From: an uncultured Clostridia bacterium
GTDB lineage: Bacteria > Bacillota > Clostridia > Christensenellales > CAG-314
Length of the DNA: 64,000 nt
NCBI GenBank assembly: GCA_947629985.1
Contig: CANRFV010000008.1
Location: 8,897 to 72,896, forward strand
Reading direction: 5' to 3'
Both the position numbers and the translations under genes were made by a program. Shown here piece by piece: positions 2,842 through 24,358 of this stretch (position 1 is the first letter of the stretch; every line of letters begins with the position of its first letter). The notes beneath the pieces were generated by a model. The model was given only the letters and a program-made list of their open reading frames with translations, did no database searches and was not told the origin of the DNA.

Positions 2842-4670
<1,829 letters not shown>

Positions 4671-4831
4671 TTCTCCTTATTTTTATATTTGTGCAGTTAC
4701 AATGTTCTCTGGCTGAATGGATACAATGTTCTCTCTCCATATTCACAAAAATCCTCCTTTTTTAGATTTTGCAAATCGTGGGTAGAAACAGTTTGTTCAA
4801 CCGAAGTTCTATCCGTTTTGTCGGTGTAAAG

Positions 4832-5113
4832 TTATTTCTCGGACTTATCCGACTCAAACTCGAAAAAGTCATCATAACCGTCCATAATCTTTGCAAGGGA
4901 AGTGTCGTGTTCCGCCGCTTCGTCAAGCAAAGCCTTATAGCCGGCTTCAATTAGTTGTATTTTGGTGTACCCGTACTTTTTAAGAAAAGCGTTGATGTTC
5001 TCAGCCGTTTCTCTCGGCACACTCGTTCCCCACGAAAGGCTCTTCGCCTTTCTTTCCGCTTTGTGTTTCTCCTCGTAACGCTTATCCTTGACAGACCTCG
5101 GTTTCTTTTCCAT
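4832..5113 (-). CDS. small hypothetical protein (basic N-terminus, acidic C-terminus)
   Basis: The internal ATG at 5113 (MEKKPRSVKDKRYEEKHK...) has GGAGG ~7 nt upstream. The longer track ORF (to 5188) lacks a ribosome-binding site. Confidence 0.45.
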   Translation of the reverse strand: MEKKPRSVKDKRYEEKHKAERKAKSLSWGTSVPRETAENINAFLKKYGYTKIQLIEAGYKALLDEAAEHDTSLAKIMDGYDDFFEFESDKSEK

Positions 5114-5197
5114 GATTACCTCCGTAAAATATATATGTCGTATGAATACGATTATATCTTTTCCTTCGGTGTTTGTCAAGAGATTCAAGCGGGATTC

Positions 5198-5953
5198 TTA
5201 AAGGCCGTCGTAATAAAGTTCGTCGTAGAGATCGCCGTCTGTCCGATGGTAACGCTTACGTTGACTTTCCACAGTATTCTTGATGAGGGAGAAGCTCTCG
5301 CCACGCTTTGCTCCGTACTTCTCGGATACTTCCTTGAAAAATTCCTCTTGCAAAGCAGAGTATGATACTAACCCGCCGCGCACTTTCCAAAACTCTGAAT
5401 GTGAAAGCAAGGGTTCGTCTATCTCTTCCCGATGCCTATACATAGGCATATCGTACTCGTCGCGCATTTGAAGTCTGTTTCCCGCTTCGCTTTTGTCGTT
5501 GCTCATGATTTTTTCTTGCCATACTTCGGTGACGGGAAGATAATAGACAAAGAGGTTTCGCCTGTTCGGCTCGGTAACGATCACGGCGCAGATGATGTTC
5601 TCATGTGTGTGTAAGAAACCTATTTTGTCTATGGCATAAAGGTAGCAAACAGCAAAATAGGCTCGTATATCCTGTTCGGATGCGAAGCCGCTCCAAAACT
5701 CCCGATTCCCGCCGAATTGCAGGCACTCCAAGACAATGTTCTTGCCTCGGTTATTGAATGTTGCGTTTGTAGACTTCATTACTTCGTTCCACGCCTGTTC
5801 GGTCGTGGACATTCTCCTTATGTATTCTACCTTATACCGCTGTTCACAGTCTGAAAGGTATTCGTCTATGTTTGCAAATTCGCTTTTCTTGTGCGCAATA
5901 ACGGAAATGGTCGCGTGTTTGTCCCGCGGATACTTCTGTTCTGGCATTCCCAT
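5198..5953 (-). CDS. hypothetical protein, possibly a divergent Mob/Pre-like mobilisation protein
   Basis: 251 aa with good coding appearance in the mobility module of the island. It has only a loose resemblance to MobV/Pre relaxase N-termini, and the canonical HxDE..PHxH motif is not present (FLHTHENIICAVIV instead). Confidence 0.35.
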   Translation of the reverse strand: MGMPEQKYPRDKHATISVIAHKKSEFANIDEYLSDCEQRYKVEYIRRMSTTEQAWNEVMKSTNATFNNRGKNIVLECLQFGGNREFWSGFASEQDIRAYFAVCYLYAIDKIGFLHTHENIICAVIVTEPNRRNLFVYYLPVTEVWQEKIMSNDKSEAGNRLQMRDEYDMPMYRHREEIDEPLLSHSEFWKVRGGLVSYSALQEEFFKEVSEKYGAKRGESFSLIKNTVESQRKRYHRTDGDLYDELYYDGL

Positions 5954-6107
5954 TTTGTTCTCGTAATATTTGTAAATCTTGTTTCACCTCCTTTTGAGGG
6001 CGGAAAAAACAGCCCTTTGTTCAAGGACTGCCTGTTCACGTTTCGATACTCCCTCTAATTGTAAGCCACGGGAACGCCGAAATTATTAGTCATTACAAGA
6101 AAATTTT

Positions 6108-7133
6108 TTATTTTAGCAACTTTTTGCCCGAATAGGCTTTGTAGAATTGCTCAATACGCTTGTTTCTTGACTTGGCAATGAACGGATAGAAGCGTTGGGT
6201 AAGAAAGTCGTAAGTAGATATTTTCAGACGGCTTGCGATCTTCTCCGCCGTGGAGTAGATGCTCGTATAGGCTTTGTCTGAATCGTGAAGTCCCGATTGC
6301 TGCCGACGGTTCATCTCCGTCATAAGGCGCACATAGACGGCTTGCACAATGGGCGGTCTTTCGCCATAATACTCCTCGAAATGTAGGCGTTCTTCTTCGT
6401 CTGCGGCTTCTTTGTATTTCGCTATATCTTCGTCTATTTTGTCCTCGTCAAAGAGATAGTACCTCATAAGGTAGCGGCAGAACTCTCCGACGCTGTAATA
6501 CCAATGAGTGAACGGCAACAAATCCAACAAAAGCCAACGAATGATAAATTCGAGTTCGACATCTAAATAATTAGGCATTGTGCCTGTGTCAAGGAAAATA
6601 TCCCAACATTTGCGGACATACGCTTCGGGACTTGCTTTCCTCAATTCGGCTTTCGTGATTTTCTCTTTCGCCTTTTTGAGCGTCATGGAGATGTAGCCCT
6701 GCGTAAGTCCGAGTTCTTCCGCCGCTTCCGCCTGCGTCTTGTCCTCAATCACGCAGAGATTGTAAACCTCGAACTCTCTATCCGTCAGATCATCTGTGTT
6801 CCGTAATGCTTTCGGCGGCTTTCTCTCCGCCTCGGCAAAGCTGAAATTCTTGTCTATGAACTGCTCCTGTTCTTTGGGTGAGAGCAAGGCTTCTGTATCT
6901 CTGTCGGGAAGGACGGTATTATGCCGTTGGTATGTATGGGTGTTGTTGTATTCCAACCGATCCATCTCGATGAGTGTTTCCCATTCCTGTTCGCTGACTT
7001 CAACCGTGATGTAATACTTGTTGCCGACGTGCGAATTTGCGATCTCCTCGTCTGCGGGGTAATAGTACAGAAACTTGCCGTCCGTAGGTGCGGGCTGTTT
7101 CTTCTTGTTCAGATGATATGCCAACTTATCCAT
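6108..7133 (-). CDS. sigma-70 region-4-type helix-turn-helix protein (transposon accessory regulator)
   Basis: 341 aa. LTDREFEVYNLCVIEDKTQAEAAEELGLTQGYISMTLKKAKEKI is a sigma-70 r4/LuxR-type HTH. The remainder is uncharacterised. Confidence 0.6.
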   Translation of the reverse strand: MDKLAYHLNKKKQPAPTDGKFLYYYPADEEIANSHVGNKYYITVEVSEQEWETLIEMDRLEYNNTHTYQRHNTVLPDRDTEALLSPKEQEQFIDKNFSFAEAERKPPKALRNTDDLTDREFEVYNLCVIEDKTQAEAAEELGLTQGYISMTLKKAKEKITKAELRKASPEAYVRKCWDIFLDTGTMPNYLDVELEFIIRWLLLDLLPFTHWYYSVGEFCRYLMRYYLFDEDKIDEDIAKYKEAADEEERLHFEEYYGERPPIVQAVYVRLMTEMNRRQQSGLHDSDKAYTSIYSTAEKIASRLKISTYDFLTQRFYPFIAKSRNKRIEQFYKAYSGKKLLK

Positions 7134-7452
7134 ACGACAATTATATCACACCAAACATGACAATACCTGTCACCATTAGAAAATTTTCCGAAAAAATTTT
7201 AGTGGGCATACACCATACCAAATGTGCCACAAAAGTGGGCAAAAAACGGATGCCTAAGCAGGATAAGGAAGTTGGTCACCAGTGCCACAACTTCGCCCCT
7301 CAACAAGCGGGAAACCCGCCTTGGGTGTTCTTCTTCCAAACGACAGAAAAGACGCAAATCTATAAATTTTTTCTCTAAAAATCGCCACGAGATTTCGCAA
7401 AAAAGTGCAAATACAATCGTATGCGCACATCGTTGGTTTTACTAAAATTTGT

Positions 7453-8586
7453 TTATCGCTCTAAAACTTTTTGCAAGGCATCTGCTATCACTATCACATC
7501 TTCGTCGCTATTATATTTCCCGATAGAAATTCGTATTGTCCCTTTTGCGACGGATTCTTCAACGCCAATCGCTTGTAAGACATGGGAAATCTGTGTGTTG
7601 ACACTATCACAGGCCGCTCCCGTAGATATAGCGATTCCCATAAGATCCAACCGATGAAGAACAGCTTCCCCATCAGCGCCGGGAAAAGAAAGGCTGATGA
7701 TCCCCGTGGCAACTTCCCCGCCGCCGTTTCTTATAAATCTACAATTCCTCTGATGCAGAGAGGCAAGAAGGAGATTTTCAATTCTTGAAATTTTCCTTGT
7801 GTATTCATCAAGCATTTCACAGTTTTTCTTCAAAGCAACTGCCATGCCGACAATGGAGGCGACATTTTCCGTACCGGCGCGAAATCCATATTCTTGCGCT
7901 CCCCCGTCGTTCAGCGAATGGATTTGGTTCCCTTTACGAATATAGAGAAACCCTACCCCCTTGGGCCCATTGAACTTATGCGCGGAGGCAGAAAGCATAT
8001 CAACCCCCAGTTCTTCTACGTCAACCTTAATATGCCCGACGGCTTGCACGGCATCGGTATGAAAAAGTGCTCCATGCCGATGTGCGACATTCGCCAATTC
8101 ACAAATCGGTTCAATCGTGCCGATTTCATTGTTTACCATCATGACCGACACAAGGCCCGTAGGTTCAGTCATGGCAGCTTCCAATGCGCCCGCCGAAACA
8201 ATGCCGTTATGATCTGAACGGATGTAGGTTACATGATAGCCCTGCCTTTCGATGGTAGAGCAGGCATTCAAAATCGCATGATGCTCAATGTTTGAAGTAA
8301 TGATCTGCCTTTTGGACGAATCGGCATAAGCAGTCCCTTTGATTGCCCAATTATCCGATTCTGTTCCGCCTGACGTGAAAAATATTTCTTCCGGAGAAGC
8401 CCCAATACACGATGCCACAATTTCCCTTGCCTCTGCGAGTGCTTTCCGAGACCTTCGGGCAAACGAATATGGCTGAGAAGCATTTCCATACTCATCCAGC
8501 AGAAATGGCTTCATGGCTTCAAAGGCACACCCATCTAATTTGGTTGTCGCCGCATTATCGGCATAAATATAGTGTTTCATAGTCAC
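7453..8586 (-). CDS. cysteine desulfurase (NifS/IscS/DndA-like class V aminotransferase)
   Basis: 377 aa. Motifs seen: YADNAATTKL N-terminus, the PLP-lysine motif SASAHKFNGPKGVGFLY, and the active-site Cys in ISTGAACDS. Its ATG (8586) directly abuts the stop of the upstream 69-aa gene (8587). Confidence 0.9.
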   Translation of the reverse strand: MTMKHYIYADNAATTKLDGCAFEAMKPFLLDEYGNASQPYSFARRSRKALAEAREIVASCIGASPEEIFFTSGGTESDNWAIKGTAYADSSKRQIITSNIEHHAILNACSTIERQGYHVTYIRSDHNGIVSAGALEAAMTEPTGLVSVMMVNNEIGTIEPICELANVAHRHGALFHTDAVQAVGHIKVDVEELGVDMLSASAHKFNGPKGVGFLYIRKGNQIHSLNDGGAQEYGFRAGTENVASIVGMAVALKKNCEMLDEYTRKISRIENLLLASLHQRNCRFIRNGGGEVATGIISLSFPGADGEAVLHRLDLMGIAISTGAACDSVNTQISHVLQAIGVEESVAKGTIRISIGKYNSDEDVIVIADALQKVLER

Positions 8587-8796
8587 TTATTTGAACAAAG
8601 TACACCCATCCTCTTTGAATTGCTCTATTTTTTCAAGCAATTCTTCCGTAGATGTATTCAAATACTCTGCCAAACACTCCATGCAATAAAAGTGTTCAAT
8701 CTCTTTCCCTAGCAATTTCTTATTAAGTGCTATCGTGTCCTTGTCCAAATCTTCCTTAAAACACGAAACACAATTCACTTTTACGTTAGTCATCAT
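8587..8796 (-). CDS. 69-aa four-cysteine (CxxC...CxxC) mini-protein
   Basis: MMTNVKVNCVSCFKED...HFYCMECLAEY...EDGCTLFK contains two CxxC pairs plus a fifth Cys. It overlaps the brxL stop by 11 nt and abuts the desulfurase ATG, consistent with translational coupling. Confidence 0.55.
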   Translation of the reverse strand: MMTNVKVNCVSCFKEDLDKDTIALNKKLLGKEIEHFYCMECLAEYLNTSTEELLEKIEQFKEDGCTLFK

Positions 8797-10258
8797 AAGC
8801 TATTATTTTGAAGTCGGGGACATCTTTCCCTTTGTACTCTTTGTCAATTAGAGCCTGTTGCATCCTCACGATAGAGCGCATTTTTACTGCCGGACTCAAA
8901 CAATATGTTTTGAAATCTTTTATTGTTATATCCGTTACCTTTCTCACGTTGGGGAACAACAACTTCAAGTATGCCGTAGCGATACGTTTAATTGCTTCTG
9001 TATCTCTTGTATCAGCCCTGTCAGGCACTTCAAGTAATCTGTCCACAATAGTACGATATGAAGCATCATCCCTCAAAGCATGAAGAATGGAACAAAAATA
9101 TTCTGAATTTAATGCCCAACCTGTCAATTTAAGGTTGTCGTTCATTCTTGGTATATCCCACCCTTTGATAAAGCCATGAATTCGATCCAACAAAGCGGTC
9201 TCTTGGAACAAAGGCGGAAGCTCATTTAGCATATAACTATATTCATCCATGTTGTCTTGGGCAATATTCCCCAAGAAAACTATTCCCGCATCTGCTTCGC
9301 CTTCGAATCCGTTGCAATTGAAAGTCCCGTATTCCATGTAACCCTGTAAAATCGAACGCATTTCGTTGTCATCGTTGAATTTTACGAGTTTAATTTCATC
9401 TATTGCTACAAAATCGTTTCCCTGAATGAAACCATACCTTCTTGATGCGTTGTCATAAAACATTTTCGAACGAGTTACCTTTCCCCCGTCAACTAATGTT
9501 CCGTATTTACTAACGTGTCCAAATAAATATGATTTTCCTGTTCCTTTGGGTGCCAACTCTATTATATTTAACCTCTTCTCTATAAACGGCAAGAGCCTTG
9601 TTAGCACAGCAAGTTTTTGATGCTCATCGTCATAGCCATCAGCATTATAATCGACAGCACCAAGAATAATATCTATCCATTCATGAACGTTAAATTCATT
9701 GCGAATATCTTTGTAAAATTCAAGGTCAACCGTATATGGACAGAAGTTCTTAAATGAGCATAGTTTTATTTTACCCTTTTCCTTATGCTTTGCTTTGTCA
9801 CCTTCAAACTTTATGTCAAAATCGTCAGGATATTTATATCCCAACTCGACTATTCCCCAAACGTCTCTCGCACTAATCAGTTCGTCCTTGCACTCCAACC
9901 AAACGTGAGGTTCAATAATTGTCTCGCGATTAGTCAATCCAAAGTCGGGCAAAGAGAAGGAAATCGACTGATCCGCAACGCTAATATCGACGGTTATCCT
10001 CGTCAAAAATTTGACCCTTTCTCCGCCGATAACAATTCTGTCCTTTATTGCTATCCAATCTTCCTTTTTGGGGATTCGCGTTGAAATGAAGTCACTCATT
10101 CCGTCATAATCAATATTTCCTTCGTCATCCTGAAAAATCTTGATTAAATAGTCCCTCAAAAATGACGGTAGGTTAATGCTTGAAAAGAAGCTGGTGTTCT
10201 TTATATCTTTATAAACGACCATATCGTCAAAATACTCTCTTAACTTATCCGTAGCCAT
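8786..10258 (-). CDS. brxL: BrxL-like AAA+ ATPase lacking the C-terminal Lon-protease domain
   Basis: 490 aa. Several blocks match remembered type 1 BrxL sequence: LREYFDDMVVYKDI, Walker A ELAPKGTGKSY, Walker B FVAIDEI, IVFLGNI and LDRIHGFIKGWDIPRM. The protein ends about 90 aa after this last block, with no Lon-like domain. Confidence 0.8.
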   Translation of the reverse strand: MATDKLREYFDDMVVYKDIKNTSFFSSINLPSFLRDYLIKIFQDDEGNIDYDGMSDFISTRIPKKEDWIAIKDRIVIGGERVKFLTRITVDISVADQSISFSLPDFGLTNRETIIEPHVWLECKDELISARDVWGIVELGYKYPDDFDIKFEGDKAKHKEKGKIKLCSFKNFCPYTVDLEFYKDIRNEFNVHEWIDIILGAVDYNADGYDDEHQKLAVLTRLLPFIEKRLNIIELAPKGTGKSYLFGHVSKYGTLVDGGKVTRSKMFYDNASRRYGFIQGNDFVAIDEIKLVKFNDDNEMRSILQGYMEYGTFNCNGFEGEADAGIVFLGNIAQDNMDEYSYMLNELPPLFQETALLDRIHGFIKGWDIPRMNDNLKLTGWALNSEYFCSILHALRDDASYRTIVDRLLEVPDRADTRDTEAIKRIATAYLKLLFPNVRKVTDITIKDFKTYCLSPAVKMRSIVRMQQALIDKEYKGKDVPDFKIIAYDD

Positions 10259-10264
10259 AATTTT

Positions 10265-12526
10265 TTACTCCCAAAGATTATTAGTTTTTGCGGATTCTTT
10301 TTCTACCACAAACGTGTTGTCCGATGAAACAAGTTCATCGCCTTCCCACACTTCAAATTGATACTCCCCCGCTTTTCTTATATCGTCTAATTCGGCGACA
10401 AAGTTGATGCCATCTTCTGTTTGCGTGTCATACGTTTTTCCATTGATCTTAATCAGGCAACGCGACAACTTTTTTGTACAGAAAAAGTGTAAAACTGCTT
10501 TCTTTTTGAAGCTGACTTTGATTACTTCATCAATCACTTTTATTTCCGCAAAGCTGACCTTCTCATATATTTCGATTATCGGCACTATGACTTCTTCCAA
10601 TGTCGCGCCGCCATGCATTTCCACCTTGCCGACTCTTCCACCTTTGAAGGCATTATAATCTGCCAATATATAATAGTCATCTTCTAATATGGCATTAGGG
10701 ATTTGTTTCATATCGGGAACAACTTTACAAACTCTCCCGCCATGTTCACCAACGGATTCAACATCCTCCTTGACCATCTCCGTGTTAAGGATAGCCAATC
10801 GCGTTGACCCGTGATCGGAGACAATTATAGCCTTCTTGATTGCTTGGCTCTTTATCTTTCTCCTTATACTGTCCAAACATTTATTGATGATTTTGAATTC
10901 TTCAATGATGTGAATTGGCAACTTCGTTTTATCAAAATCATAGTCATCCTTGCCGTCGTGTTTTAGCGTATCCAACTCTTTTTCATCTATAACATCTATT
11001 CCAATTTTGGCAAAATAACTTTTGAACTCGGTGTTCTTTACCGTAATCGTTGGAAGATTAGCTTTGCAAATGCTTATCTTGCAGACCAATCCTTTTTCTT
11101 GGCATTTTCTTTCTATAAAGCTCAAGAATTCCACGCCAAGAGCATCCACAAAGTATACAAGTGAATCTTCACAATTTATCTCGCCGATTTTTTCCGTTCT
11201 ATACACGACTCTGCGCTTGTATGAGCGCTCCACCGCCTCTGCATCCACCTTCTCCTTAAATTCAGGGGTGAGAGTATTCAGAACCTTCAAAAGTTTGTAT
11301 TCGTTGAAGTATTCCGTCAGGAAATCATCACCATAATTGTAGTCTACTAGATACTCATAAAGGTCGTTATAAACCCGCTTCAAAATCGTCAACAATTTAT
11401 TCTTCGTAAATTGAGATTTATACCGATCAATGATCTGTATTATGAGCTTCTTTTCGTTATCCGTGTTGTCGGTTAAATAATAGAGCGTATCCTCGTTTTT
11501 ATACTGAACGTACGAGCAATATTGATATATTGTTGTATCATCTTGAATTTCTTTTAGTATCCTCTTTCTGCTCTCGTATTTATCCCAGTAACCCTCTTCT
11601 TTATAATTTAAGCTCAAAATCGAATGATAAATATTGCTTATAAAGTCATTCACGGATTGCGATTTGTCTACCGAATAGTCAACCGCCCAATTCCCAGTTT
11701 TCGCTTCTTTGAGCTTCAAATAAATGAACAACAACCACTTTTCAAACGGTGTTTTATTGTTCCAATCCTTAATTTCAGAGATAATATCTCCCGTGTTTAT
11801 AAATTCTCTTATTGTTGCTTCTATTGAGCCTTCAATCAATTTTGTAAGAAGCAAGTTCCATTCATTATCGCTTCCCCATTTTCTATTCAGCTTCCGTGTT
11901 TGTTTATCTTTAAGACGAAGTAAATCATACGGCGTTTGACACTCCTCGATGCTTATCATCGACGTCGCAAAATCCGACTTGCAAAATCCTGTTATTACAT
12001 ATATTTTTTCGCCTTCGGTCTTTTCAACGCGTTGAAGTGCGCTCTTTAAGCCAATCTCGGCATTGACCATATTTTTGTAGGCATTAGATATAAATACCAA
12101 TGACGAAGAAAGCGGAACTTCTTCCTCCATCGAAGTAATTATGTTTTCCTTGTATTTGGGAATTTTCTCATCAAAGTACCTACCACATTGATACATTACA
12201 ATGATGAATTTCGTCGCGTAGGCTGTTCCGAGCAAGGAATGGATGGTTTTTTTGAATTCTTCTTTTCCCTTTAATCGAAGATATGTCCCAAGTCCATAAA
12301 TGAAGCAAAGCTCTTCATTACAGCAGTCCATATACTGATATATGTCTGCTGTATTGGGCAACTCGCTTCCCCAGTTAGCAAGATCAAAGACGACCTTCTT
12401 TTTCAGCATAAGGTATTGCTGAGAAAGTTCTTGTAAATCGTCTACATGAGAAACATCGACGATGAGCGGCCTCTTATCGTCGCTATTTCTGTATGCTTCA
12501 ATTCTGCGCTTAATCCATTCCTTCAT
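10265..12526 (-). CDS. pglZ: PglZ-domain (alkaline-phosphatase superfamily) protein
   Basis: 753 aa. The C-terminal half has LVYFVDALGVEFLSF and IIVSDHGSTRLA, which are the metal-site motifs typical of PglZ. Its position between brxC and brxL matches the BREX order. Confidence 0.8.
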   Translation of the reverse strand: MKEWIKRRIEAYRNSDDKRPLIVDVSHVDDLQELSQQYLMLKKKVVFDLANWGSELPNTADIYQYMDCCNEELCFIYGLGTYLRLKGKEEFKKTIHSLLGTAYATKFIIVMYQCGRYFDEKIPKYKENIITSMEEEVPLSSSLVFISNAYKNMVNAEIGLKSALQRVEKTEGEKIYVITGFCKSDFATSMISIEECQTPYDLLRLKDKQTRKLNRKWGSDNEWNLLLTKLIEGSIEATIREFINTGDIISEIKDWNNKTPFEKWLLFIYLKLKEAKTGNWAVDYSVDKSQSVNDFISNIYHSILSLNYKEEGYWDKYESRKRILKEIQDDTTIYQYCSYVQYKNEDTLYYLTDNTDNEKKLIIQIIDRYKSQFTKNKLLTILKRVYNDLYEYLVDYNYGDDFLTEYFNEYKLLKVLNTLTPEFKEKVDAEAVERSYKRRVVYRTEKIGEINCEDSLVYFVDALGVEFLSFIERKCQEKGLVCKISICKANLPTITVKNTEFKSYFAKIGIDVIDEKELDTLKHDGKDDYDFDKTKLPIHIIEEFKIINKCLDSIRRKIKSQAIKKAIIVSDHGSTRLAILNTEMVKEDVESVGEHGGRVCKVVPDMKQIPNAILEDDYYILADYNAFKGGRVGKVEMHGGATLEEVIVPIIEIYEKVSFAEIKVIDEVIKVSFKKKAVLHFFCTKKLSRCLIKINGKTYDTQTEDGINFVAELDDIRKAGEYQFEVWEGDELVSSDNTFVVEKESAKTNNLWE

Positions 12527-12537
12527 TTGACACTCCG

Positions 12538-15500
12538 TTACTTTTTCGTGTTTAGAATTTCAACGCCAACCGTTATATTCTCTGTGACAAGTTCCTTCAA
12601 ATATTTTCTTAACTCGTCAGAACCCATTGCATCTATAACAGCATTGACTTTTGCGCTTCCGCCGTTGATATACTTTTGATATGCAACTTTTGACACATAG
12701 TCTTCAATGGCGGCATTTCCCAACCAATTATAGGGGGAAATCATTGGGAACTTATTTCTGATTTTATCCTTAATGTCCTCGACATTATCAAATAGTGTCG
12801 TAAAATTGCGCAGTATGGCTTTTCTAAAACACGACTCTCTCGCATCAGCGTTCTTCAAGTTTCCATAGTGGTTAAATCGTGTCAGATACTCGATAGCATC
12901 ATCAATTTTAGACTTATCGCTTATTTGACTATTAATTACTTCAAACGATGCCCTTGCGTTTTCCTGCTCTGCCGCGGGAATCATACATAGTATAGGCATC
13001 GTATATTTGTTTGACCATGCCTCAGGGCTTTCAGTCCCTGTCCTTTCTTTCCACAAGGATAAAAGCCGATATTTAGACATATTTGCTTTGTATGACTTTA
13101 CTCCCGCATCCAACTTGGTTTGGAACTCACTATTCTCACAAGCAAATACGTTCGTCAGGTATCGTGAAGCGATTTCCGACACATCTTCATCTGAAAGCTC
13201 ATCAAGATAGAACGCTCCAATCTTTTTCAGTAAGGACAGCTGATTTTCGCAAAACTCCTTAAATCTTGCGCCTTGCGTTTTCAGCTCTGCCAAGAACTTT
13301 TCTTTATCTGTGTCATATATAAATCCATCACGGGAAATTTGATATAGGAATTCAAGGAGTCTTTGTAATTCTCCGACCTCCAACCGAACCGCACTATAAC
13401 TGACTTTGAATGTTTGGGCTTTCTTTCTCCACTCGTCTAAACAGTCGGCATACGAGGAAGTTCTGACAATCATTCCATTGCTTTCACTAACGATTTCATA
13501 CTCTGTTATTGTCTCATCAATTTTTTCGTCTATGGTATCCTTGTTCCACACCCAATTTGATGATTCACTAAATTTCTTACTGATTTCGTTGATGAATGTA
13601 CCCGTATCGCCTATCATTTGTGCAAGAGTAATCAGCCGTCCATCTTTGTAAACGCCCAAATACATTTGCATCCCTTGTGTGCAGTTTTCTCTTGTGAGTA
13701 TGTTTTTCAAATCATCTTGCAAATGCTCGTTTTGTGTGTAAAGCCTTCCGATTTCGAGAGCGATGTCTGTTTCCGTTTTTTGCGTAGAAGAATTGTTCGC
13801 CAATTCAACATACAAGTCAACCAGTTCATCGAGAATGGCTTTCGAGTTAACGGTGTTGTATTCGACATATTTCAACGTCCAAATCGGAAATCCGAACGAT
13901 GTCATTTTAGTTCTGACATACGACCTTGTGTTTTCGATTGAGGAACAAAGTTTTTCATCAATGCCAAAAACAAACGAAGTTCCCTTATTAAACGCTCTCT
14001 GTTCGGGCGACATGGCAACAATGTACTTTGTTCTGTATTTAGGATTGGGTGTTTGTTGCTGCTTGATGATTTCATCAATCATCTCTTTCATCTTTTCAAC
14101 CGACATTGGATCGGTTGTTACATCATCCGTCCAATTGTATGAATCATTGGCATATTCTCTCAATACAAAACCCAAAACAAACGCAGAGAGATTGCAGGGC
14201 ATAAAACCAAACGGGGGTTCAATCAATGCATCGTATATATCAGAAATTGATACTCGCGTCCCCGCGTCTAAATTCTTTGCAATGACATCTTCTACTGCAA
14301 TTTTAACCCTCGATAAAAGTTCATTGGGTCTTGTTTTCCAGTAGTTTTCAACATTCCAAACCCCTGCAAATTGTTTCTCCAACTTTGTATTTTCATTGGG
14401 GGATTTGAATGTTCCCTTAATTTCTCCTGTAATTCCACATTCGGCACCTTGTTTAAGAGCGTTCGATGCATACATATTGTCGATTACATTGACGTGCGTT
14501 TCCAAAGAGAATTCAAAGTGTTCCCTGTCGAATTCTTTGAGAATTGAAATTACTTCTGATTCGGAATTACACATTGTCCCAATTCGATCCGAATATGTAA
14601 ATAACCTTGGGGTGGAAGTTTTGATTTGTATTTTCCACCGCTTCAATGCTTCCTTTGCGTTTTTGTAGTAGGTCGCAGACTGACCATTGTCCTTGCCCCT
14701 CTGATAATTGCCGTTTGCCATATTCTCAACAAATTGCTCAAACAAATCATTGTTGAGATACGTCGCCGAATAGTCTATGAAAACTATTTTGTCAAATTCG
14801 TCATTGAAAGTTTTTTCAATTTCAACTCTTATTTTGGTACTCTCTTCTTCGTTGCGCGCAAACGCATAGACCGCGTAAAGTCGTGTCGGATGATTGGCGG
14901 AATCCGACCTTAATTGAGCGACTGTCATTCTAATATTTTCGTATGTAACAAGTCTAACATTGGGAAATCTTATTTCCAAATGTTTAGGAAGTTTGAAATC
15001 ATTAACAAATTCTCCCTCCTCAACTAACTTGTCCGTTCTAATCTCGCTTCTAAGCCTCACTTTTTCCTGTTCTATTTCTTCACGATTCCCATTTGAAATA
15101 AGCGCAGAATATTTTGTCGCGCCGGCTCCCATTGGACGTTCAAAAATAATTTGTTCTCCAACCAAGCTCTGTGCTAATGAGGCGGCATTGCTAATAGAAA
15201 TATCTGTTCCCTCAAACGCCAATCCGAGGTTTTTAGCGTTTGGAATAAACAAAGAAACCGAATCCCCAACTTTTTCATTGATCGCTTGAAGCAACAAAAT
15301 AGTTTTTAGTACCCTTTTCTGCTTTGCCATCAAATTATGAGACTCTGTCCTTCCATAAACATCTAAAATAGACCTGATTTGAGGTGCTAATTGATCCTTC
15401 CCCTTTTCATAGAAGAAATCCCAAAGCATATCAACAGTCAATAAAGTTTCATTATCCTCGGGTCCATAGTTGTCAATGAACCATTGGAAGCTCTTAATTT

Positions 15501-16740
15501 CATCGCCCCTATCGTTTTTTATGAAATCAAACATACTTCTTTGGTTTGAGTCAAATGCCGAAGCGATATGTTTCAAAACGAGCGCAGCATACGGATGAAT
15601 CGGAAGTACACCTTTTAATTCCCTTTCTCCGATTTTTGCCGCTTTAATAACTTCGTTCCGTGAATCGTGAGTTAAATCATATAACTCATCAACAATCTGA
15701 TCCCAATCTTGTATAACCGCAGGATCGTTGACTTTTTGCATCGCGTGTGCAGTTAAAACAAAAGCCATATTATCAGGCAATTCAATCGAACAATGCGGTG
15801 CGATGAATCTCCCGTTAATTTTCGTTTTTATGTCATCATTGGTATTCTCAAAAAATATGTCCGATTTATGAGTAACAATCGCAAAGTAAAATGGATGCGA
15901 TTCGCTCATTTCTGCCATATATTGAAAGCCTGATAAGTTCCCCTTGTTGATTTCAAAGTAGTCGGAAAACTCATCCCAGATAAAGAAGATTGCCTTCAAG
16001 TTATTTTTATCAATGACATCAAGTATCCATGTCCTTAAATCCTCCTTTTTAAGAACGAATGGCTTGATTCCCTTTTCTTCGCCAACTTGCGAGATTTTCT
16101 CAATCAAGGATTGCAATGCTTTTTCGGACGTGTATGTTTTCAAATTCTCCAACACAACATCTGCGTTTGCACCTGCGAAGCGAACCCTATACTCACCCGA
16201 CTGAATGATGTTGTTAAAGTAATTCTTGTTTGCATCGTCGGAAAGCCAATTTATCATTGCCTGTTTAATACCGACTTGTCCCAAGTATTCATATCCCTTT
16301 TCACGCAGAGCAGAAATGATACTCTCCTGAATACTCTCCATCAGGATACGATCATTCTTAATTTCAGACGAACCCATTCTATGAACAGCAAGTACCTTTT
16401 TAGGCTGATTCTTGATGCTGTAAAACTCGTTGTACAGGTCGTTGGATAAAACAGTCTTATACCTGTCAAAATACTCCTTTAACTCTTCATTTGAACAGTC
16501 TAACAATTTTTTTAATGTCAAAACGGCATGAGACTTGCCTGTTCCATAAGCTCCTTCAACCCAAATTGACATTCTTTGCCCGTTAGTTAATACGCTCTTG
16601 GTTTGATTGAGAAGTCTGATAAACGAATCATGCGGATAATATGATTTCCAGACATTCGGCTGAGTCCTGATGACGTCCTCATTAACCGCAGGGAAATAGC
16701 TTTCGTTGATTTGAAAATAGTTTCTATACTTCTTACTCAT
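12538..16740 (-). CDS. brxC: BrxC/PglY-like large P-loop ATPase
   Basis: 1400 aa. Walker A is IWVEGAYGTGKSHAVLTLKKLL and Walker B is IFFIWDEFSDY, in the same N-terminal context as BrxC. AGGAGA lies upstream of the ATG. Confidence 0.7.
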   Translation of the reverse strand: MSKKYRNYFQINESYFPAVNEDVIRTQPNVWKSYYPHDSFIRLLNQTKSVLTNGQRMSIWVEGAYGTGKSHAVLTLKKLLDCSNEELKEYFDRYKTVLSNDLYNEFYSIKNQPKKVLAVHRMGSSEIKNDRILMESIQESIISALREKGYEYLGQVGIKQAMINWLSDDANKNYFNNIIQSGEYRVRFAGANADVVLENLKTYTSEKALQSLIEKISQVGEEKGIKPFVLKKEDLRTWILDVIDKNNLKAIFFIWDEFSDYFEINKGNLSGFQYMAEMSESHPFYFAIVTHKSDIFFENTNDDIKTKINGRFIAPHCSIELPDNMAFVLTAHAMQKVNDPAVIQDWDQIVDELYDLTHDSRNEVIKAAKIGERELKGVLPIHPYAALVLKHIASAFDSNQRSMFDFIKNDRGDEIKSFQWFIDNYGPEDNETLLTVDMLWDFFYEKGKDQLAPQIRSILDVYGRTESHNLMAKQKRVLKTILLLQAINEKVGDSVSLFIPNAKNLGLAFEGTDISISNAASLAQSLVGEQIIFERPMGAGATKYSALISNGNREEIEQEKVRLRSEIRTDKLVEEGEFVNDFKLPKHLEIRFPNVRLVTYENIRMTVAQLRSDSANHPTRLYAVYAFARNEEESTKIRVEIEKTFNDEFDKIVFIDYSATYLNNDLFEQFVENMANGNYQRGKDNGQSATYYKNAKEALKRWKIQIKTSTPRLFTYSDRIGTMCNSESEVISILKEFDREHFEFSLETHVNVIDNMYASNALKQGAECGITGEIKGTFKSPNENTKLEKQFAGVWNVENYWKTRPNELLSRVKIAVEDVIAKNLDAGTRVSISDIYDALIEPPFGFMPCNLSAFVLGFVLREYANDSYNWTDDVTTDPMSVEKMKEMIDEIIKQQQTPNPKYRTKYIVAMSPEQRAFNKGTSFVFGIDEKLCSSIENTRSYVRTKMTSFGFPIWTLKYVEYNTVNSKAILDELVDLYVELANNSSTQKTETDIALEIGRLYTQNEHLQDDLKNILTRENCTQGMQMYLGVYKDGRLITLAQMIGDTGTFINEISKKFSESSNWVWNKDTIDEKIDETITEYEIVSESNGMIVRTSSYADCLDEWRKKAQTFKVSYSAVRLEVGELQRLLEFLYQISRDGFIYDTDKEKFLAELKTQGARFKEFCENQLSLLKKIGAFYLDELSDEDVSEIASRYLTNVFACENSEFQTKLDAGVKSYKANMSKYRLLSLWKERTGTESPEAWSNKYTMPILCMIPAAEQENARASFEVINSQISDKSKIDDAIEYLTRFNHYGNLKNADARESCFRKAILRNFTTLFDNVEDIKDKIRNKFPMISPYNWLGNAAIEDYVSKVAYQKYINGGSAKVNAVIDAMGSDELRKYLKELVTENITVGVEILNTKK

Positions 16741-16751
16741 AACTTTCTCCT

Positions 16752-19109
16752 TTAGAACAACCCAAGAACGTCGTTCGATGTTTTATCGTTTTTCAAATTG
16801 ATGTTGTCCAATCCAAGGGTGAACGAAACGGATATAAATTCGGGGTAGTTAATTGCCAACCCTTGCAGTAACTTTTCCATTATATCACGATTCAATCCAA
16901 ATATTTCAGTTGGGCTGATACCATCACTTTCAATATCATGATTTAGAAGGCGTGTAAGCGAGAACTGATAGTATTCACCGCAATTTTCTGCAAATTTGTA
17001 AAGCGAATATAGAACAACCTTTGGATCAGGGTCATCCCATGAAACACGCATTATGCTGTTCAACTTTCTTTTGCCATTTTTGACTTCATAATCACACTTA
17101 CCCAACCCTATTTCTTCCGATAACGGTTTAATGGAGATAAAAGTATTCTTGAACGCACTTGCTATGTGATCCTTCGTGTTCTCTGTTAAGTTTGAGTCTA
17201 ACATACCAATTAGGAGATTCGTATCCACATAAGAATTGAATTCTATGTGCTTGATCCACCAGTTAAACTCTGCTGTGTATGCAAGATTCGACAGCATCAA
17301 TCCCCAAGCGGATACATCGTCAACTCCCATAGCCATAACCAATCTGCCAAACGACGTGATTTGATTCTTCTCGGTTATGCCCGCATCTTTAAGAAAGTTT
17401 TTGAAAACGTCAATCTTCTTGCTTCCGAGACTATGAGTTTCCCAAAAAGTATCGCCTTTTTCAAAAAACTCCTTTACCCACTCGTATTCAATTCCGAAGT
17501 TCGTGTATCTGTCAATACTGCCCATTTTTCTCTCTCCTTTTGGTAATTTAAGTGATGCCGAAACCAAGCACCCATTGTCTATATCATAACATTTCTTACA
17601 TTTTACACATTGATTATCTATGCGAACAACGTTATTGTCAAATGAAATATATCCGTTGGGGCAGTTTGCTTCGCAAACACGACAGCCGATACAATAACAC
17701 GCCTTTCGCAAAACCGTTTTTAGATATGAGCCGAAATATATATCGTTCCGTGAATTCGATGATACATCGACCGTGAAAATAAGCGCATCCGTTTGTTCCT
17801 CTATATGAATGACATATATTTTGTTCTCATATACAACTTCCGCTCGATTATCCTCAATGGACACAATGCGTCCAAGTGTTTTTAACCACTCGCACCATTG
17901 GGCGTTTTTGTTTTTGATTGTTACCGTCAATATGCCATCTTTCAGTTCATCGAAATACACAGGTTTTGCAATATTTAACTCTCTGCCACTCCTTCTTGCT
18001 TTCCAACCGCCTATGTTCATGAATTCTTCTATTGCTTTCTGCGAACTCAAGTCTTTTGAGGTTGTTTCAAGTATAATATCGTTGAATGTTTTCGTGGTAT
18101 TTTCGCCGTTTACAGATGTACCGTAGCATTCCATTTTTATGTAGGAATTCTTTTGCCCCGCCAACGGGCAAATTAAACATCCTGCTCTGCTGTTCCCCTT
18201 TTTATAAGCATCATTAAGCGGAAGTCCTTGCTGATATATATACAGAAATAGTTCAGCCGTATTCCAATCAAGTATAGGATGGCAACTATATTGTCCCTTT
18301 ACTTTTTCGCCAAGACTAACTTCCTCATATTCGCTTCGAGATTCGCTTTCGTCGCCTCGTACTCCTGTAAAAGCCATTCCCTTAAATTGACTGTTTTTGA
18401 GATATTGTCGCAAAAACAAAATCTGCGGAGTCGATTTATGTACACTACAACACCATCTTAATCGTTGAGCCGGGGGCCCGAAAACTCTCCAGGAATCTTT
18501 GGGGTCTAAATGAGATTTAGATATATAAAATCTTATTCCTTTTTTTTCGCAGTCAGCTTCTACCTGTTTGACAAGTTGATATGTATCCGAAAATTCCATG
18601 CCTGTGTCGCCAAACAACACTATAAAATCGCTATGCGGCAAAGACCGTTGTACAATGTCTAACGCCACAATGCTATCTTTCCCTCCGCTGAAGGCGACAT
18701 AGAATATATCTACTTTATCCTTATATTTTAGATATTGTCCATACGTCTTTTTAATGGTATGCTGAACCATTTGATCTAACAGCTTCCTGTTCTTATCAAC
18801 CATCTTCGCAACATTAACGAACTGCAATGGAGCATCGTCAGGTTCTGGCTGATCTAAAAATACTATCTCGGGCGCACTACACATTGCACCGCCCTTTGTT
18901 TTTGCGACTACTCTCCCCTTGTAAATATAGGTATTTGCTTCTGCCCACATATATGGAAACGAGTCGTCCTTTGCATACTTCCACACTTTGTCAAAACCTA
19001 AAATGTCCAACTCTTGATAGTAGACAGGTCTCGGCTCTCTGCTCATTTGCAAAGGGGAACTGTTTAGAAGCAAGCCGCCCGTTTCCGTATCCCACTCGTA
19101 TGAATACAC
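16752..19109 (-). CDS. brxP: BrxP: PAPS-reductase/PP-loop ATP pyrophosphatase with Fe-S cluster motifs (DndC/SspD-like)
   Basis: 785 aa. The PP-loop is VAFSGGKDSIVALDIV. Ferredoxin-like Cys clusters are CYCIGCRVCEANCP and CVKCKKCYDIDNGC. The GTG start has AGGAGG 9 nt upstream, inside the end of the preceding gene. Confidence 0.8.
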   Translation of the reverse strand: MYSYEWDTETGGLLLNSSPLQMSREPRPVYYQELDILGFDKVWKYAKDDSFPYMWAEANTYIYKGRVVAKTKGGAMCSAPEIVFLDQPEPDDAPLQFVNVAKMVDKNRKLLDQMVQHTIKKTYGQYLKYKDKVDIFYVAFSGGKDSIVALDIVQRSLPHSDFIVLFGDTGMEFSDTYQLVKQVEADCEKKGIRFYISKSHLDPKDSWRVFGPPAQRLRWCCSVHKSTPQILFLRQYLKNSQFKGMAFTGVRGDESESRSEYEEVSLGEKVKGQYSCHPILDWNTAELFLYIYQQGLPLNDAYKKGNSRAGCLICPLAGQKNSYIKMECYGTSVNGENTTKTFNDIILETTSKDLSSQKAIEEFMNIGGWKARRSGRELNIAKPVYFDELKDGILTVTIKNKNAQWCEWLKTLGRIVSIEDNRAEVVYENKIYVIHIEEQTDALIFTVDVSSNSRNDIYFGSYLKTVLRKACYCIGCRVCEANCPNGYISFDNNVVRIDNQCVKCKKCYDIDNGCLVSASLKLPKGERKMGSIDRYTNFGIEYEWVKEFFEKGDTFWETHSLGSKKIDVFKNFLKDAGITEKNQITSFGRLVMAMGVDDVSAWGLMLSNLAYTAEFNWWIKHIEFNSYVDTNLLIGMLDSNLTENTKDHIASAFKNTFISIKPLSEEIGLGKCDYEVKNGKRKLNSIMRVSWDDPDPKVVLYSLYKFAENCGEYYQFSLTRLLNHDIESDGISPTEIFGLNRDIMEKLLQGLAINYPEFISVSFTLGLDNINLKNDKTSNDVLGLF

Positions 19110-22570: not shown

Positions 22571-22984
22571 TTACGTTGTTATATAATCATTAAAAATTGT
22601 GAAGTCCCCATTGACCATGCGCTTGGCAAGACTATCGGATTGCTCCTTATCCAAACCGTTTAATAACTTAATGCTATCGTAAGCACCCTTCATAATTAAA
22701 TTGGAAATCTCACCTTGAAGTTCGTTATATAAATCATCGAGAGATAAATTCCACAATACATCAATTTTTGAATTCAAAGCTTTTACAGCTGTTTCTATAA
22801 CAGCTACGATAGGATTATCTATGCGTACATATATAATAAAATTTTCAATTTCATAGCGAGGAACAGAATAAAATTTGTCACTATAATTGAGTGCTTTATT
22901 ATAATTTTCTACATCCTTACTCAAATCGTGTGATTTAGCTACTCTTTCGAATATTTCAAAACACTTTTCTATAAATGTCATCAT
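22571..22984 (-). CDS. 137-aa hypothetical protein, start abutting the stop of the PDDEXK nuclease gene
   Basis: Its ATG (22984) abuts the stop of the upstream nuclease gene (22985). No recognisable motif. Confidence 0.5.
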   Translation of the reverse strand: MMTFIEKCFEIFERVAKSHDLSKDVENYNKALNYSDKFYSVPRYEIENFIIYVRIDNPIVAVIETAVKALNSKIDVLWNLSLDDLYNELQGEISNLIMKGAYDSIKLLNGLDKEQSDSLAKRMVNGDFTIFNDYITT

Positions 22985-23974: not shown

Positions 23975-23984
23975 AGTTATCTCC

Positions 23985-24194: not shown

Positions 24195-24358
24195 AGAACG
24201 CCTCTCAACTATCATTGGAAATATTATAGCATAGTTTCAATAGAAATGCAATCAAAAATCTATAATTTGGACTTTGATTCGGCAAAACAAAAGAGCAGAG
24301 AAATTCTCTCTACTCTTTACTCCGAACTTGCTGTTTTTGTATCTTATTTATTGAATTA

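What the first reader, a model, noticed from the sequence alone, without database searches (positions are those of the whole stretch)
7453..8796. Cysteine desulfurase plus 69-aa CxxC...CxxC protein at the 3' end of the defense operon, with intermediate base composition
Seen in sequence: the 69-aa ORF (CVSC...CMEC plus a fifth Cys) overlaps brxL by 11 nt, and its stop abuts the desulfurase ATG. Hand GC counts of single 60-nt lines are:
- desulfurase gene: 26/60 (7801-7860) and 28/60 (8101-8160);
- adjacent BREX genes: 25/60 (9001-9060) and 18/60 (11401-11460);
- valS: 36/60 (26101-26160).

Inference: the pair may be a sulfur-relay module (desulfurase plus a small zinc/persulfide-carrier or Fe-S assembly adaptor) recruited to the BREX core from a different genomic background. 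Small Cys-rich partners of DndA/SspA-type desulfurases are not, to my knowledge, part of the described Dnd/Ssp sets.
Basis: partly seen in the sequence, partly recalled or inferred. Interest (0 to 1): 0.65.

Follow-up and report, generated by a model that had tools for sequence, protein, structure and literature searches.

The report
BREX-4 sulfur-supply genes, recombined
The cysteine desulfurase and the 69-residue five-cysteine protein are the known accessory pair of phosphorothioate-writing type 4 BREX phage-defence operons, and the odd base composition comes from a recombination crossover exactly between the two genes.

Summary
The ORFs, the 11-nt overlap, the five cysteines and all five hand GC counts are exact.

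The locus is a type 4 BREX operon (brxP-brxC-pglZ-brxL) followed by the 69-aa gene and a DndA/SspA-like cysteine desulfurase. [quoted passage not shown] It is therefore a new member of a known kind.

- The order brxL-small-desulfurase is present in every locus with room to show it: 79 of 80 seeded on the small protein and 66 of 66 seeded on BrxL.
- In more distant type 4 BREX the small gene sits before brxL, or both genes are absent. They appear to be gained and lost together.
- The same domain is fused to, or lies next to, PAPS-reductase enzymes elsewhere.
- The protein is acidic and under strong purifying selection. Its fifth cysteine is invariant.

I favour a sulfur-delivery adaptor between the desulfurase and BrxP, at moderate confidence.

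The GC break is real and extreme, and it has a simple cause. The core plus the small gene is about 95% identical to one element (L081). The desulfurase plus downstream backbone is about 90% identical to another BREX-4 element (L085). The crossover lies at 8560-8620. So the pair was not recruited together from outside.

The parts
7453..8586 (-). Cysteine desulfurase, class V aminotransferase, type I NifS/IscS/DndA/SspA-like. The likely true start is the ATG at 8580, giving 375 aa.
   Evidence: Pfam Aminotran_5 1e-82. PADLOC DndA and SspA about 1e-127. NCBIfam NifS 430 bits, IscS 329, DndA 328, all below the equivalog cut-offs. PLP Lys in SAHK (K204) and catalytic Cys in GAAC (C326). Sits in the BREX-linked clade and is sister to L085.
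8587..8796 (-). 69-aa five-cysteine protein: 2 x CxxC zinc-ribbon-like half, then three helices, ending in an invariant F-K-x-x-G-C-x-L-F.
   Evidence: 215 and 408 homologue clusters. C9, C12, C38, C41 and C65 are invariant. dN/dS about 0.08. AF2 pLDDT 81.5, helices 19-29, 39-45 and 50-63. Net charge -5.
8786..10258 (-). brxL, short form (BrxL_N plus ATPase, no Lon protease domain).
   Evidence: Pfam BrxL_N and BrxL_ATPase. PADLOC BrxL 7e-202.
10265..12526 (-). pglZ (BREX-4 type).
   Evidence: PADLOC PglZ 2e-74; Pfam DUF7862, DUF7863 and DUF7864.
12538..16740 (-). brxC/pglY ATPase (SspC-related).
   Evidence: PADLOC BrxC 2e-250 and weaker SspC hits.
16752..19109 (-). brxP: PAPS-reductase/PP-loop domain, then a Cys-rich ferredoxin-like region, then an SspB-like C-terminal part.
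   Evidence: Pfam PAPS_reduct 5e-28 and weak Fer4. PADLOC BrxP 2e-239.
8560..8620 (.). Recombination crossover between an L081-like BREX core (with the small gene) and an L085-like desulfurase plus backbone.
   Evidence: Sliding 60-nt identity switches here, from 0.95/0.58 to 0.68/0.93 for L081/L085. The junction is contiguous in a Logan contig of run X1 and in ENA contig L221. Contigs of X3 and X4 break at 8539-8568.
4863..7452 (-). Mobile-element backbone co-inherited with the desulfurase: a sigma-70 region 4-like 341-aa gene (6108-7133) and a 251-aa gene (5198-5953).
   Evidence: 88.7% nt identity to L085 and L086 across 8646..4863. The same genes follow the desulfurase in L085, L086 and L221.

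Best explanation
The two genes are the dedicated sulfur-supply end of a type 4 BREX system, which marks host DNA with phosphorothioate (PT).

The desulfurase is the DndA/SspA equivalent. Using PLP (Lys204) and Cys326, it strips sulfur from L-cysteine as an enzyme persulfide for BrxP. BrxP is the PAPS-reductase-type PP-loop enzyme that, with BrxC, writes PT.

The 69-aa protein is a conserved, acidic, zinc-ribbon-plus-helical adaptor. I infer that it works with PAPS-reductase-type enzymes and couples the desulfurase to BrxP. Most likely it docks the desulfurase and takes the persulfide, or an Fe-S precursor, on its invariant C-terminal Cys65.

Shown here or in the literature:
- the gene identities;
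- PT writing by BrxP+BrxC in the presence of a desulfurase;
- the conserved linkage, and the joint presence or absence of the two genes.

Inferred: the adaptor or persulfide-carrier chemistry.

The compositional step between the two genes is a homologous-recombination crossover. It joined one BREX-4 core (with its small gene) to the desulfurase and backbone of another BREX-4-carrying integrative element.
For: Identity of the system:
- PADLOC, Pfam and NCBIfam hits.
- PT synthesis by BREX-4 brxP+brxC in the presence of a desulfurase (PMC12914056).
- Desulfurase in 56% of BREX-4 taxa, often with a small zinc finger (PMC12839542).

Linkage:
- 80/80 genome loci seeded on the small protein have brxL upstream, and 79/80 have the desulfurase downstream.
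- 66/66 BrxL-seeded metagenome loci with room have both genes.
- In more distant BREX-4: 10 loci brxL-small-desulfurase, 6 loci pglZ-small-brxL-desulfurase, 8 loci with neither, 1 locus small-only with type I R-M genes in place of the desulfurase, and none desulfurase-only.

Link to PAPS reductases outside BREX-4:
- C-terminal fusion to a truncated BrxP (P0243; P0249, PADLOC BrxP 2e-145 over model positions 1-518).
- C-terminal fusion to phage PAPS reductases (P0171, P0246; phrog_424).
- A standalone homologue 2.5 kb from two PAPS_reduct genes.

Features of the small protein:
- All five Cys are at least 97% conserved over 150 representatives at 50% identity, and Cys65 is present in 134 of 134.
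- dN/dS about 0.08.
- BREX-linked members are acidic: median pI 4.73, and the helical half of the window protein carries net charge -5.
- BrxP lacks the sulfur-accepting Cys dyad of DndC (PMC12839542; PMC10853773).

Desulfurase clade:
- Near homologues at 91, 74 and 64% identity are all BREX-linked.
- Housekeeping nifS genes are at most 45% identical and are split off by a 100/97 branch.

Mosaic.
Against: - PT writing does not universally need either gene. B. salyersiae brxP+brxC worked with a host SufS, and one BREX-4 clade lacks both genes.
- Pairwise divergence of the small protein tracks PglZ (rho 0.74), BrxC (0.68) and BrxL (0.54). It tracks the desulfurase (0.29) and BrxP (0.33) much less. 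The window itself shows a 65%-identical desulfurase swapped in next to an unchanged small gene.
- There is no sequence or fold match to any known sulfur carrier or scaffold such as TusA, SufE, SufU or IscU.
- The best, non-significant fold hits are HTH DNA-binding domains.
- The presence/absence pattern rests on only a few independent evolutionary events.
Confidence: 0.5

Rival explanations
1. The 69-aa protein is a structural or nucleic-acid-binding zinc-ribbon subunit of the BrxC-PglZ-BrxL machine, or a DNA-docking aid for PAPS reductases. It has no part in sulfur chemistry. Its co-occurrence with the desulfurase reflects shared descent only.
For: - Mirror-tree correlation is highest with PglZ and BrxC (0.74, 0.68) and low with the desulfurase (0.29).
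- In six loci the gene sits between pglZ and brxL, not beside the desulfurase.
- Top fold hits are HTH-like.
- Fusions to RuvX/YqgF (P0214) and to phage proteins with a weak BrxC-like stretch (P0255; BLASTP 3e-4, PADLOC BrxC 0.004).
- A conserved basic NKKLLG motif.
Against: - The protein is acidic, and the would-be recognition helices carry net charge -5.
- It is absent from the BREX-4 clade that lacks a linked desulfurase, although that clade has BrxC, PglZ and BrxL.
- The invariant fifth Cys lies outside the 4-Cys site and is unexplained by this reading.
- Fold matches are not significant (E > 0.7).
Confidence: 0.25
2. The 69-aa protein is a small zinc-finger/HTH transcriptional regulator of the operon or of the desulfurase. 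[quoted passage not shown]
For: - The published annotation.
- Weak Foldseek hits to AsnC, DeoR, DtxR and sigma-4.
- A weak Pfam hit to the NirDL-like HTH (E 0.003, below cut-off).
Against: - The gene is translationally coupled in the middle or at the 3' end of the operon: an 11-nt overlap with brxL, and its stop abuts the desulfurase start.
- The helical half is acidic.
- The domain is repeatedly fused to enzymes (PAPS reductases) rather than to sensor domains.
- A separate XRE-type HTH gene lies upstream of the locus (23985-24215).
Confidence: 0.12
3. One reading: the desulfurase and the small protein were recruited as one unit to a BREX core from a foreign, non-BREX genomic background.
For: Total GC of the desulfurase (0.468) lies between the BREX core (0.38) and the host genes (about 0.50-0.53).
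Against: - The small gene has core-like GC (0.343) and core ancestry (94% aa and about 95% nt identity to L081), whereas the desulfurase is 65% identical to L081's.
- The donor of the desulfurase is itself a BREX-4 element with the same gene order (L085).
- The trio is ancestral to a large BREX-4 clade.
Confidence: 0.03

Closest known systems
Type 4 BREX cysteine desulfurase with associated small zinc-finger protein (Nucleic Acids Res 2026, PMC12839542, section on Type-4 BREX)
   Same: Same operon type, same position after brxL, same two genes. [quoted passage not shown]
   Different: The paper gives one sentence and suggests HTH-regulator similarity. Not stated in the passages I read:
- the five invariant Cys;
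- the PAPS-reductase fusions;
- the alternative gene order;
- joint loss of the two genes;
- the crossover hotspot between them.
DndA / SspA cysteine desulfurases of the Dnd and Ssp phosphorothioation systems (PDB 3VAX, 6M4J)
   Same: Same fold and the same catalytic Lys and Cys. Encoded beside a PAPS-reductase-type PT enzyme. PADLOC DndA and SspA models score about 1e-127.
   Different: Scores fall below the NCBIfam DndA equivalog cut-off (328 against 480). The enzyme belongs to its own BREX-linked clade. Dnd and Ssp sets have no described small Cys partner.
NifS-NifU, IscS-IscU, IscS-TusA, IscS-IscX, SufS-SufE and SufS-SufU pairs (desulfurase plus small acceptor or modulator)
   Same: A small, often acidic protein is encoded next to a desulfurase and carries an essential Cys or metal site. 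This is the working analogy for what the 69-aa protein does. It rests on my knowledge of these pathways.
   Different: No sequence or fold similarity to any of them was detected. The analogy is functional only and untested.
DUF2197 / YlaI (COG4896) small zinc-ribbon proteins
   Same: The N-terminal CxxC...CxxC half matches Pfam DUF2197 weakly (E 0.0016, residues 6-42). JGI names several homologues 'YlaI'.
   Different: The score of 19.1 is below the gathering cut-off of 22.2. The helical half with the invariant GCxLF is not part of DUF2197. YlaI has no known function (literature search empty).

Membership tests
BREX type 4 | brxP (PAPS-reductase domain protein) present in place of the PglX methyltransferase | tested here: met
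   PADLOC BrxP 2e-239 and Pfam PAPS_reduct. No methyltransferase in the operon.
BREX type 4 | brxC, pglZ and brxL adjacent and co-oriented | tested here: met
   PADLOC BrxC 2e-250, PglZ 2e-74, BrxL 7e-202. Gaps between genes are 6-11 nt.
BREX type 4 | Phosphorothioate modification of host DNA and phage resistance | not testable with these tools
   Shown for other BREX-4 systems (PMC12914056), not for this locus.
DndA/SspA-type (type I) cysteine desulfurase | Class V aminotransferase fold over the full length | tested here: met
   Pfam Aminotran_5 1e-82, residues 7-364. PDB hits to NifS, IscS, NFS1, SspA and DndA.
DndA/SspA-type (type I) cysteine desulfurase | PLP-binding Lys (S-x-H-K) and catalytic loop Cys | tested here: met
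   SAHK at 201-204 and GAAC at 323-326 align with AHK and GSAC of solved desulfurases.
DndA/SspA-type (type I) cysteine desulfurase | Reaches a curated equivalog cut-off (NCBIfam DndA, NifS or IscS) | tested here: not met
   DndA 328 against 480, NifS 430 against 531, IscS 329 against 548. It is a distinct BREX-linked subfamily.
DndA/SspA-type (type I) cysteine desulfurase | Encoded with PT-modification genes rather than Fe-S housekeeping genes | tested here: met
   All sampled near homologues are BREX-4 linked. Desulfurases linked to nifU or mnmA are at most 45% identical.
BREX-4-associated small zinc-finger protein (PMC12839542) | Small protein with a Cys4 zinc-finger signature, encoded beside the BREX-4 desulfurase | tested here: met
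   69 aa with CxxC x2. Adjacent in 79/80 and 66/66 loci. Metal content was not testable.
BREX-4-associated small zinc-finger protein (PMC12839542) | [quoted passage not shown] | tested here: inconclusive
   Foldseek top hits are HTH proteins, but E is 0.7 or higher and TM is 0.45 or lower. A Pfam HTH hit is below cut-off.
DUF2197 / YlaI | Pfam PF09963 gathering score | tested here: not met
   19.1 bits against 22.2.
Known persulfide carriers and Fe-S scaffolds (TusA, SufE, SufU, IscU/NifU, rhodanese) | Sequence or fold membership in one of these families | tested here: not met
   No Pfam, NCBIfam, PDB-sequence or Foldseek match. This lowers 'is one of them', not 'works like one'.
Known persulfide carriers and Fe-S scaffolds (TusA, SufE, SufU, IscU/NifU, rhodanese) | Accepts sulfur from a desulfurase on a conserved Cys | not testable with these tools
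   Cys65 is invariant, but no biochemistry or complex prediction was available.

The most novel reading that the evidence does not exclude
The 69-aa protein defines a previously uncharacterised sulfur-handling adaptor domain: a 2xCxxC zinc ribbon, three helices and an invariant C-terminal GCxLF cysteine. This domain would serve PAPS-reductase-type DNA sulfurtransferases in general. It stands alone in BREX-4, where it would bridge a dedicated desulfurase to BrxP. BrxP lacks DndC's sulfur-accepting Cys dyad. The domain is fused to BrxP-like and phage PAPS reductases, where it would recruit a host desulfurase. If so, it is the missing sulfur-acceptor step of BREX/Ssp-type phosphorothioation, and phages carry it too.
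Probability: 0.3. Interest if true: 0.6.

Novelty: new member of a known kind. Interest (0 to 1): 0.35.

Why it matters
Type 4 BREX was recently shown to write phosphorothioate into DNA, but how sulfur reaches BrxP is unknown. BrxP lacks the cysteine dyad thought to receive sulfur in DndC.

A strictly conserved, five-cysteine companion of the BREX-4 desulfurase is a concrete candidate for that step. It also turns up fused to PAPS-reductase enzymes in phages and truncated BrxP proteins. It can be tested with simple knock-outs and point mutants.

The crossover between the two genes, together with the weak co-divergence of BrxP and the desulfurase with the middle genes, suggests that BREX-4 loci diversify by swapping the brxC-pglZ-brxL-small block between conserved end genes. 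That bears on how specificity variants spread in gut bacteria.

The basic association, however, is already in the literature.

Tried and rejected
- Fold search of the AF2 model against the PDB and BFVD gave no significant match.
- Profile search of solved-structure sequences gave nothing.
- PADLOC, NCBIfam and PHROGs have no family for the small protein.
- A literature search for DUF2197, YlaI and COG4896 returned only irrelevant papers.
I used annotated housekeeping nifS genes of other Clostridia instead.
- The idea that the GC excess is purely an amino-acid-composition effect is rejected. It explains GC1 and GC2, but the 129-locus control shows the window is an outlier in GC3 as well.
- The idea that the mosaic is a metagenome assembly chimera is rejected as unlikely. 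The junction is contiguous in a Logan contig of run X1 and in an independent ENA contig (L221). X1 may be the source sample, though.
- The promoter/terminator scan around the genes gave nothing above background that matters.
- Metatranscriptome contigs cover parts of the desulfurase and brxL but not the 69-aa ORF. Transcription of the small ORF itself is therefore not shown.
Full report
**What is there**

On the minus strand the window carries a tightly packed operon:
- a 1115-aa gene (19113-22460);
- brxP (16752-19109);
- brxC (12538-16740);
- pglZ (10265-12526);
- brxL (8786-10258);
- a 69-aa ORF (8587-8796);
- a cysteine desulfurase (7453-8586).

PADLOC assigns BrxP (2e-239), BrxC (2e-250), PglZ (2e-74) and BrxL (7e-202). 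Pfam finds PAPS_reduct in BrxP and Aminotran_5 (1e-82) in the last gene. No methyltransferase is present, so this is a type 4 BREX locus.

- The 69-aa ORF overlaps brxL by 11 nt.
- Its stop abuts a GTG at 8586. The ATG that homologues use lies 6 nt further on.
- It carries CVSC, CMEC and a fifth Cys.
- All five hand GC counts are exact.

**The desulfurase**

It is a full-length type I (NifS/IscS/DndA/SspA-like) enzyme. The PLP lysine is in SAHK (K204) and the catalytic cysteine is in GAAC (C326). Both align with the corresponding motifs of solved desulfurases.

It scores about 1e-127 on the PADLOC DndA and SspA models. It stays below every NCBIfam equivalog cut-off: NifS 430 against 531, IscS 329 against 548, DndA 328 against 480.

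It is not a housekeeping enzyme that happens to lie nearby:
- Homologues at 91%, 74% and 64% identity all sit behind brxL and a small ORF in BREX-4 operons.
- Annotated nifS genes of Clostridia that sit next to nifU or mnmA are at most 45% identical.
- In a maximum-likelihood tree, 88 BREX-linked desulfurases, including the window's, are separated from the five non-BREX ones by a 100/97 branch. Three divergent BREX-linked sequences fall on the housekeeping side.
- Host phyla are scrambled within the BREX clade, as expected for a gene that travels with the defence element.

**The 69-aa protein is a real, conserved gene**

- It has 215 homologue clusters at 90% identity and 408 at 50% identity.
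- C9, C12, C38, C41 and C65 are invariant in a 26-sequence alignment. They are at least 97% conserved across 150 representatives at 50% identity. The fifth Cys is present in 134 of 134 occupied rows, within a C-terminal F-K-x-x-G-C-x-L-F motif.
- dN/dS against close relatives is about 0.08.
- AlphaFold2 gives a confident small fold (pLDDT 81.5): a CxxC/CxxC knuckle pair and three helices.
- Foldseek finds nothing significant in the PDB or BFVD. The weak top hits are HTH domains.
- Pfam gives only a sub-threshold DUF2197/YlaI hit on the zinc-ribbon half.
- BREX-linked members are acidic (median pI 4.73). In the window protein the helical half carries net charge -5.

**Already known**

Two 2026 papers cover the essentials.

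PMC12914056 shows that BREX-4 systems write phosphorothioate. [quoted passage not shown]

PMC12839542 surveyed 457 BREX-4 taxa:
- It found a cysteine desulfurase in 56% of them and proposed it as a sixth core component.
- It also notes that BrxP lacks the cysteine dyad unique to DndC.

**Linkage tests done here**

1. Seeding on the small protein in one-genome-per-species contigs gave 320 species. In the 80 best loci, 80 have brxL immediately upstream and 79 have the desulfurase immediately downstream. The remaining locus ends at the contig edge.
2. Seeding independently on BrxL in metagenomes gave 66 loci with enough downstream sequence. All 66 have both genes.
3. BrxL-seeded loci from viral/mobile contigs reach more distant systems and show three states. 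An archaeal plasmid adds one more locus.
   - brxL-small-desulfurase: 10 loci.
   - pglZ-small-brxL-desulfurase: 6 loci.
   - Neither gene: 7 loci plus the Methanosphaera plasmid.
   - One locus has the small gene but type I R-M genes where the desulfurase should be.
   - No locus has the desulfurase without the small gene.

The two genes therefore stay together when the order changes and disappear together. These states follow BrxL clades, so only a few independent events underlie the pattern. The nominal Fisher p of 8e-6 overstates it.

**Links beyond BREX-4**

The same domain, with all five Cys, occurs in several other settings:
- at the C-terminus of truncated BrxP proteins, right after the ferredoxin-like Cys region and in place of the SspB-like part (P0243; P0249, PADLOC BrxP 2e-145 over model positions 1-518);
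- at the C-terminus of phage PAPS reductases (P0171 and P0246, phrog_424; P0171 lies in a phage contig with Mom, a DNA ligase and a second PAPS reductase);
- on 560-680-aa phage proteins with a weak BrxC-like stretch;
- once at the N-terminus of a RuvX/YqgF protein.

A 43%-identical standalone homologue lies 2.5 kb from two PAPS_reduct genes. The recurring partner across contexts is thus a PAPS-reductase-type enzyme.

**Interpretation of the small protein**

I favour a sulfur-delivery adaptor between a cysteine desulfurase and the PAPS-reductase enzyme. Cys65 would be the likely persulfide or Fe-S ligand. This rests on:
- joint gain and loss with the desulfurase;
- repeated fusion to PAPS reductases;
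- an invariant extra cysteine;
- an acidic surface, typical of desulfurase partners (my knowledge of IscS partners such as TusA, IscX and CyaY);
- translational coupling inside the operon;
- BrxP's lack of the DndC Cys dyad.

This is inference. There are real counter-arguments:
- PT writing works without the gene in other BREX-4 systems.
- The protein matches no known sulfur carrier.
- In a mirror-tree test over 60 non-redundant loci, its divergence follows PglZ (0.74), BrxC (0.68) and BrxL (0.54), not the desulfurase (0.29) or BrxP (0.33).

That last pattern could mean the protein is a subunit of the BrxC-PglZ-BrxL machine (rival 1). It could equally mean that the conserved end genes, brxP and the desulfurase, are the recombination anchors. 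A pure transcription-factor role (rival 2) fits its position, charge and fusions least well.

**The compositional break**

It is real. The desulfurase has GC 0.468, against 0.386 +/- 0.009 for equal-sized windows of the core.

Much of the excess is in codon positions 1 and 2. However, a control over 129 BREX-4 loci shows that desulfurases normally differ from their own brxL by only +0.012 in GC and -0.051 in GC3. The window's +0.084 and +0.043 are the most extreme, or nearly so.

The cause is a crossover:
- Contig L081 matches the window's BrxP, BrxC, PglZ, BrxL and small protein at 99, 98.5, 96, 99 and 94% amino-acid identity. Its desulfurase matches at only 65%.
- Contig L085 has a different BREX-4 core (about 55-63% nt identity). 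Its desulfurase is 91% identical at the protein level, and it shares the same downstream sigma-like and 251-aa genes (88.7% nt over 8646..4863).
- Sliding identity switches between the two relatives at 8560-8620, which is the small-gene stop and the desulfurase start.
- L085's own core has GC 0.44-0.45, which accounts for the imported composition.

The junction is contiguous in a Logan contig of a rabbit-gut run (7985-9400, one mismatch). It is also contiguous in an independent ENA contig (L221). Contigs of two other runs break at 8539-8568, as expected where strains with different partners coexist.

So the small gene belongs to the core. The desulfurase allele and the backbone came from another BREX-4 element. 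Nothing was recruited from outside the BREX-4 world.

**Verdict**

This is an ordinary member of a recently described class: type 4 BREX with its linked desulfurase and small zinc-finger gene. The function of the small protein is open, and it can now be tested directly. The mosaic structure and the PAPS-reductase fusions are modest additions.

Noticed in passing
L221 (ENA ERZ27249088), against window 13628..8672: A second assembly joins window 18901..13629 (99.9% identical) directly to 8671..5787. That is a 4.96-kb deletion removing the BrxC C-terminus, pglZ, brxL and the first 42 codons of the small gene. It keeps brxP, BrxC residues 1-1037 and the desulfurase. It is either a natural variant that lost the restriction side or a misassembly.
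   Followed up: partly
L189-L193 and L202 (viral contigs): A BREX-4 subclade (BrxL 42-46% identical) places the small five-Cys gene between pglZ and brxL. The desulfurase follows brxL.
   Followed up: partly
L194-L200 (viral contigs) and L178 (Methanosphaera plasmid pNP174): A BREX-4 clade (BrxL about 40% identical) has neither the small gene nor a linked desulfurase. In the archaeal plasmid a DUF262 (GmrSD-like) gene follows brxL.
   Followed up: partly
L084:7759-11245 (phage-like contig with holin, DNA ligase, Mom, GmrSD_N and PcfJ): Two PAPS-reductase genes (PADLOC BrxP/SspD/DndC-like) lie close together, separated by one 330-aa gene of unknown function. The second ends in the five-Cys domain. 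No desulfurase lies within 10 kb. This may be a phage DNA-modification module.
   Followed up: no
L092:10001-11716 and L093:7830-9545 (phage contigs with tail, endolysin, RtcB, Ro60 and YopX genes): A 571-aa phage protein of unknown function carries the five-Cys domain at its C-terminus. It also has a weak BrxC-like PPFG..CN stretch (BLASTP 3e-4, PADLOC BrxC 0.004). Related 560-680-aa proteins are P0225, P0236 and P0247. An anti-BREX role would be pure speculation.
   Followed up: partly
window 19113-22460, and P0122: Residues 301-415 of the 1115-aa first gene match the N-terminus of a 200-aa protein at 34% identity (E 5e-18). That protein ends in the C-terminal two-thirds of the five-Cys domain. 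This links the two uncharacterised BREX-4 accessory proteins, unless P0122 is a chimeric gene call.
   Followed up: partly
window 7453-19109, compared over 60 loci: Pairwise divergence of BrxC, PglZ, BrxL and the small protein is mutually correlated (0.54-0.93). BrxP and the desulfurase, at the two ends of the operon, are decoupled from them and from each other (0.04-0.40). This suggests cassette exchange of the middle block between conserved end genes.
   Followed up: partly
window 2842-7133 and 22571-24215: The BREX-4 operon sits in an island of lower GC than the flanking genes.
- Downstream of the operon: a sigma-70 region 4-like gene, a 251-aa gene and a large serine recombinase (546 aa).
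- Upstream of the operon: a 137-aa orphan, a YhcG/DUF1016 PDDEXK nuclease (PADLOC PDC-S02) and an XRE-type HTH gene.
L085 and L086 share the sigma-like and 251-aa genes but have a different recombinase (523 aa).
   Followed up: partly
window 8539-8568: Logan contigs of two gut metagenome runs (X3, X4) end and restart with a 30-nt overlap exactly here. This indicates an assembly-graph branch, so strains that share one side of the junction but not the other coexist in those samples.
   Followed up: no
window 8578-8586: The ORF finder starts the desulfurase at GTG 8586 (377 aa). All close homologues are 374-376 aa and start at the ATG at 8580 (MKHYIY...), leaving a 6-nt spacer after the small gene's stop.
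   Followed up: yes
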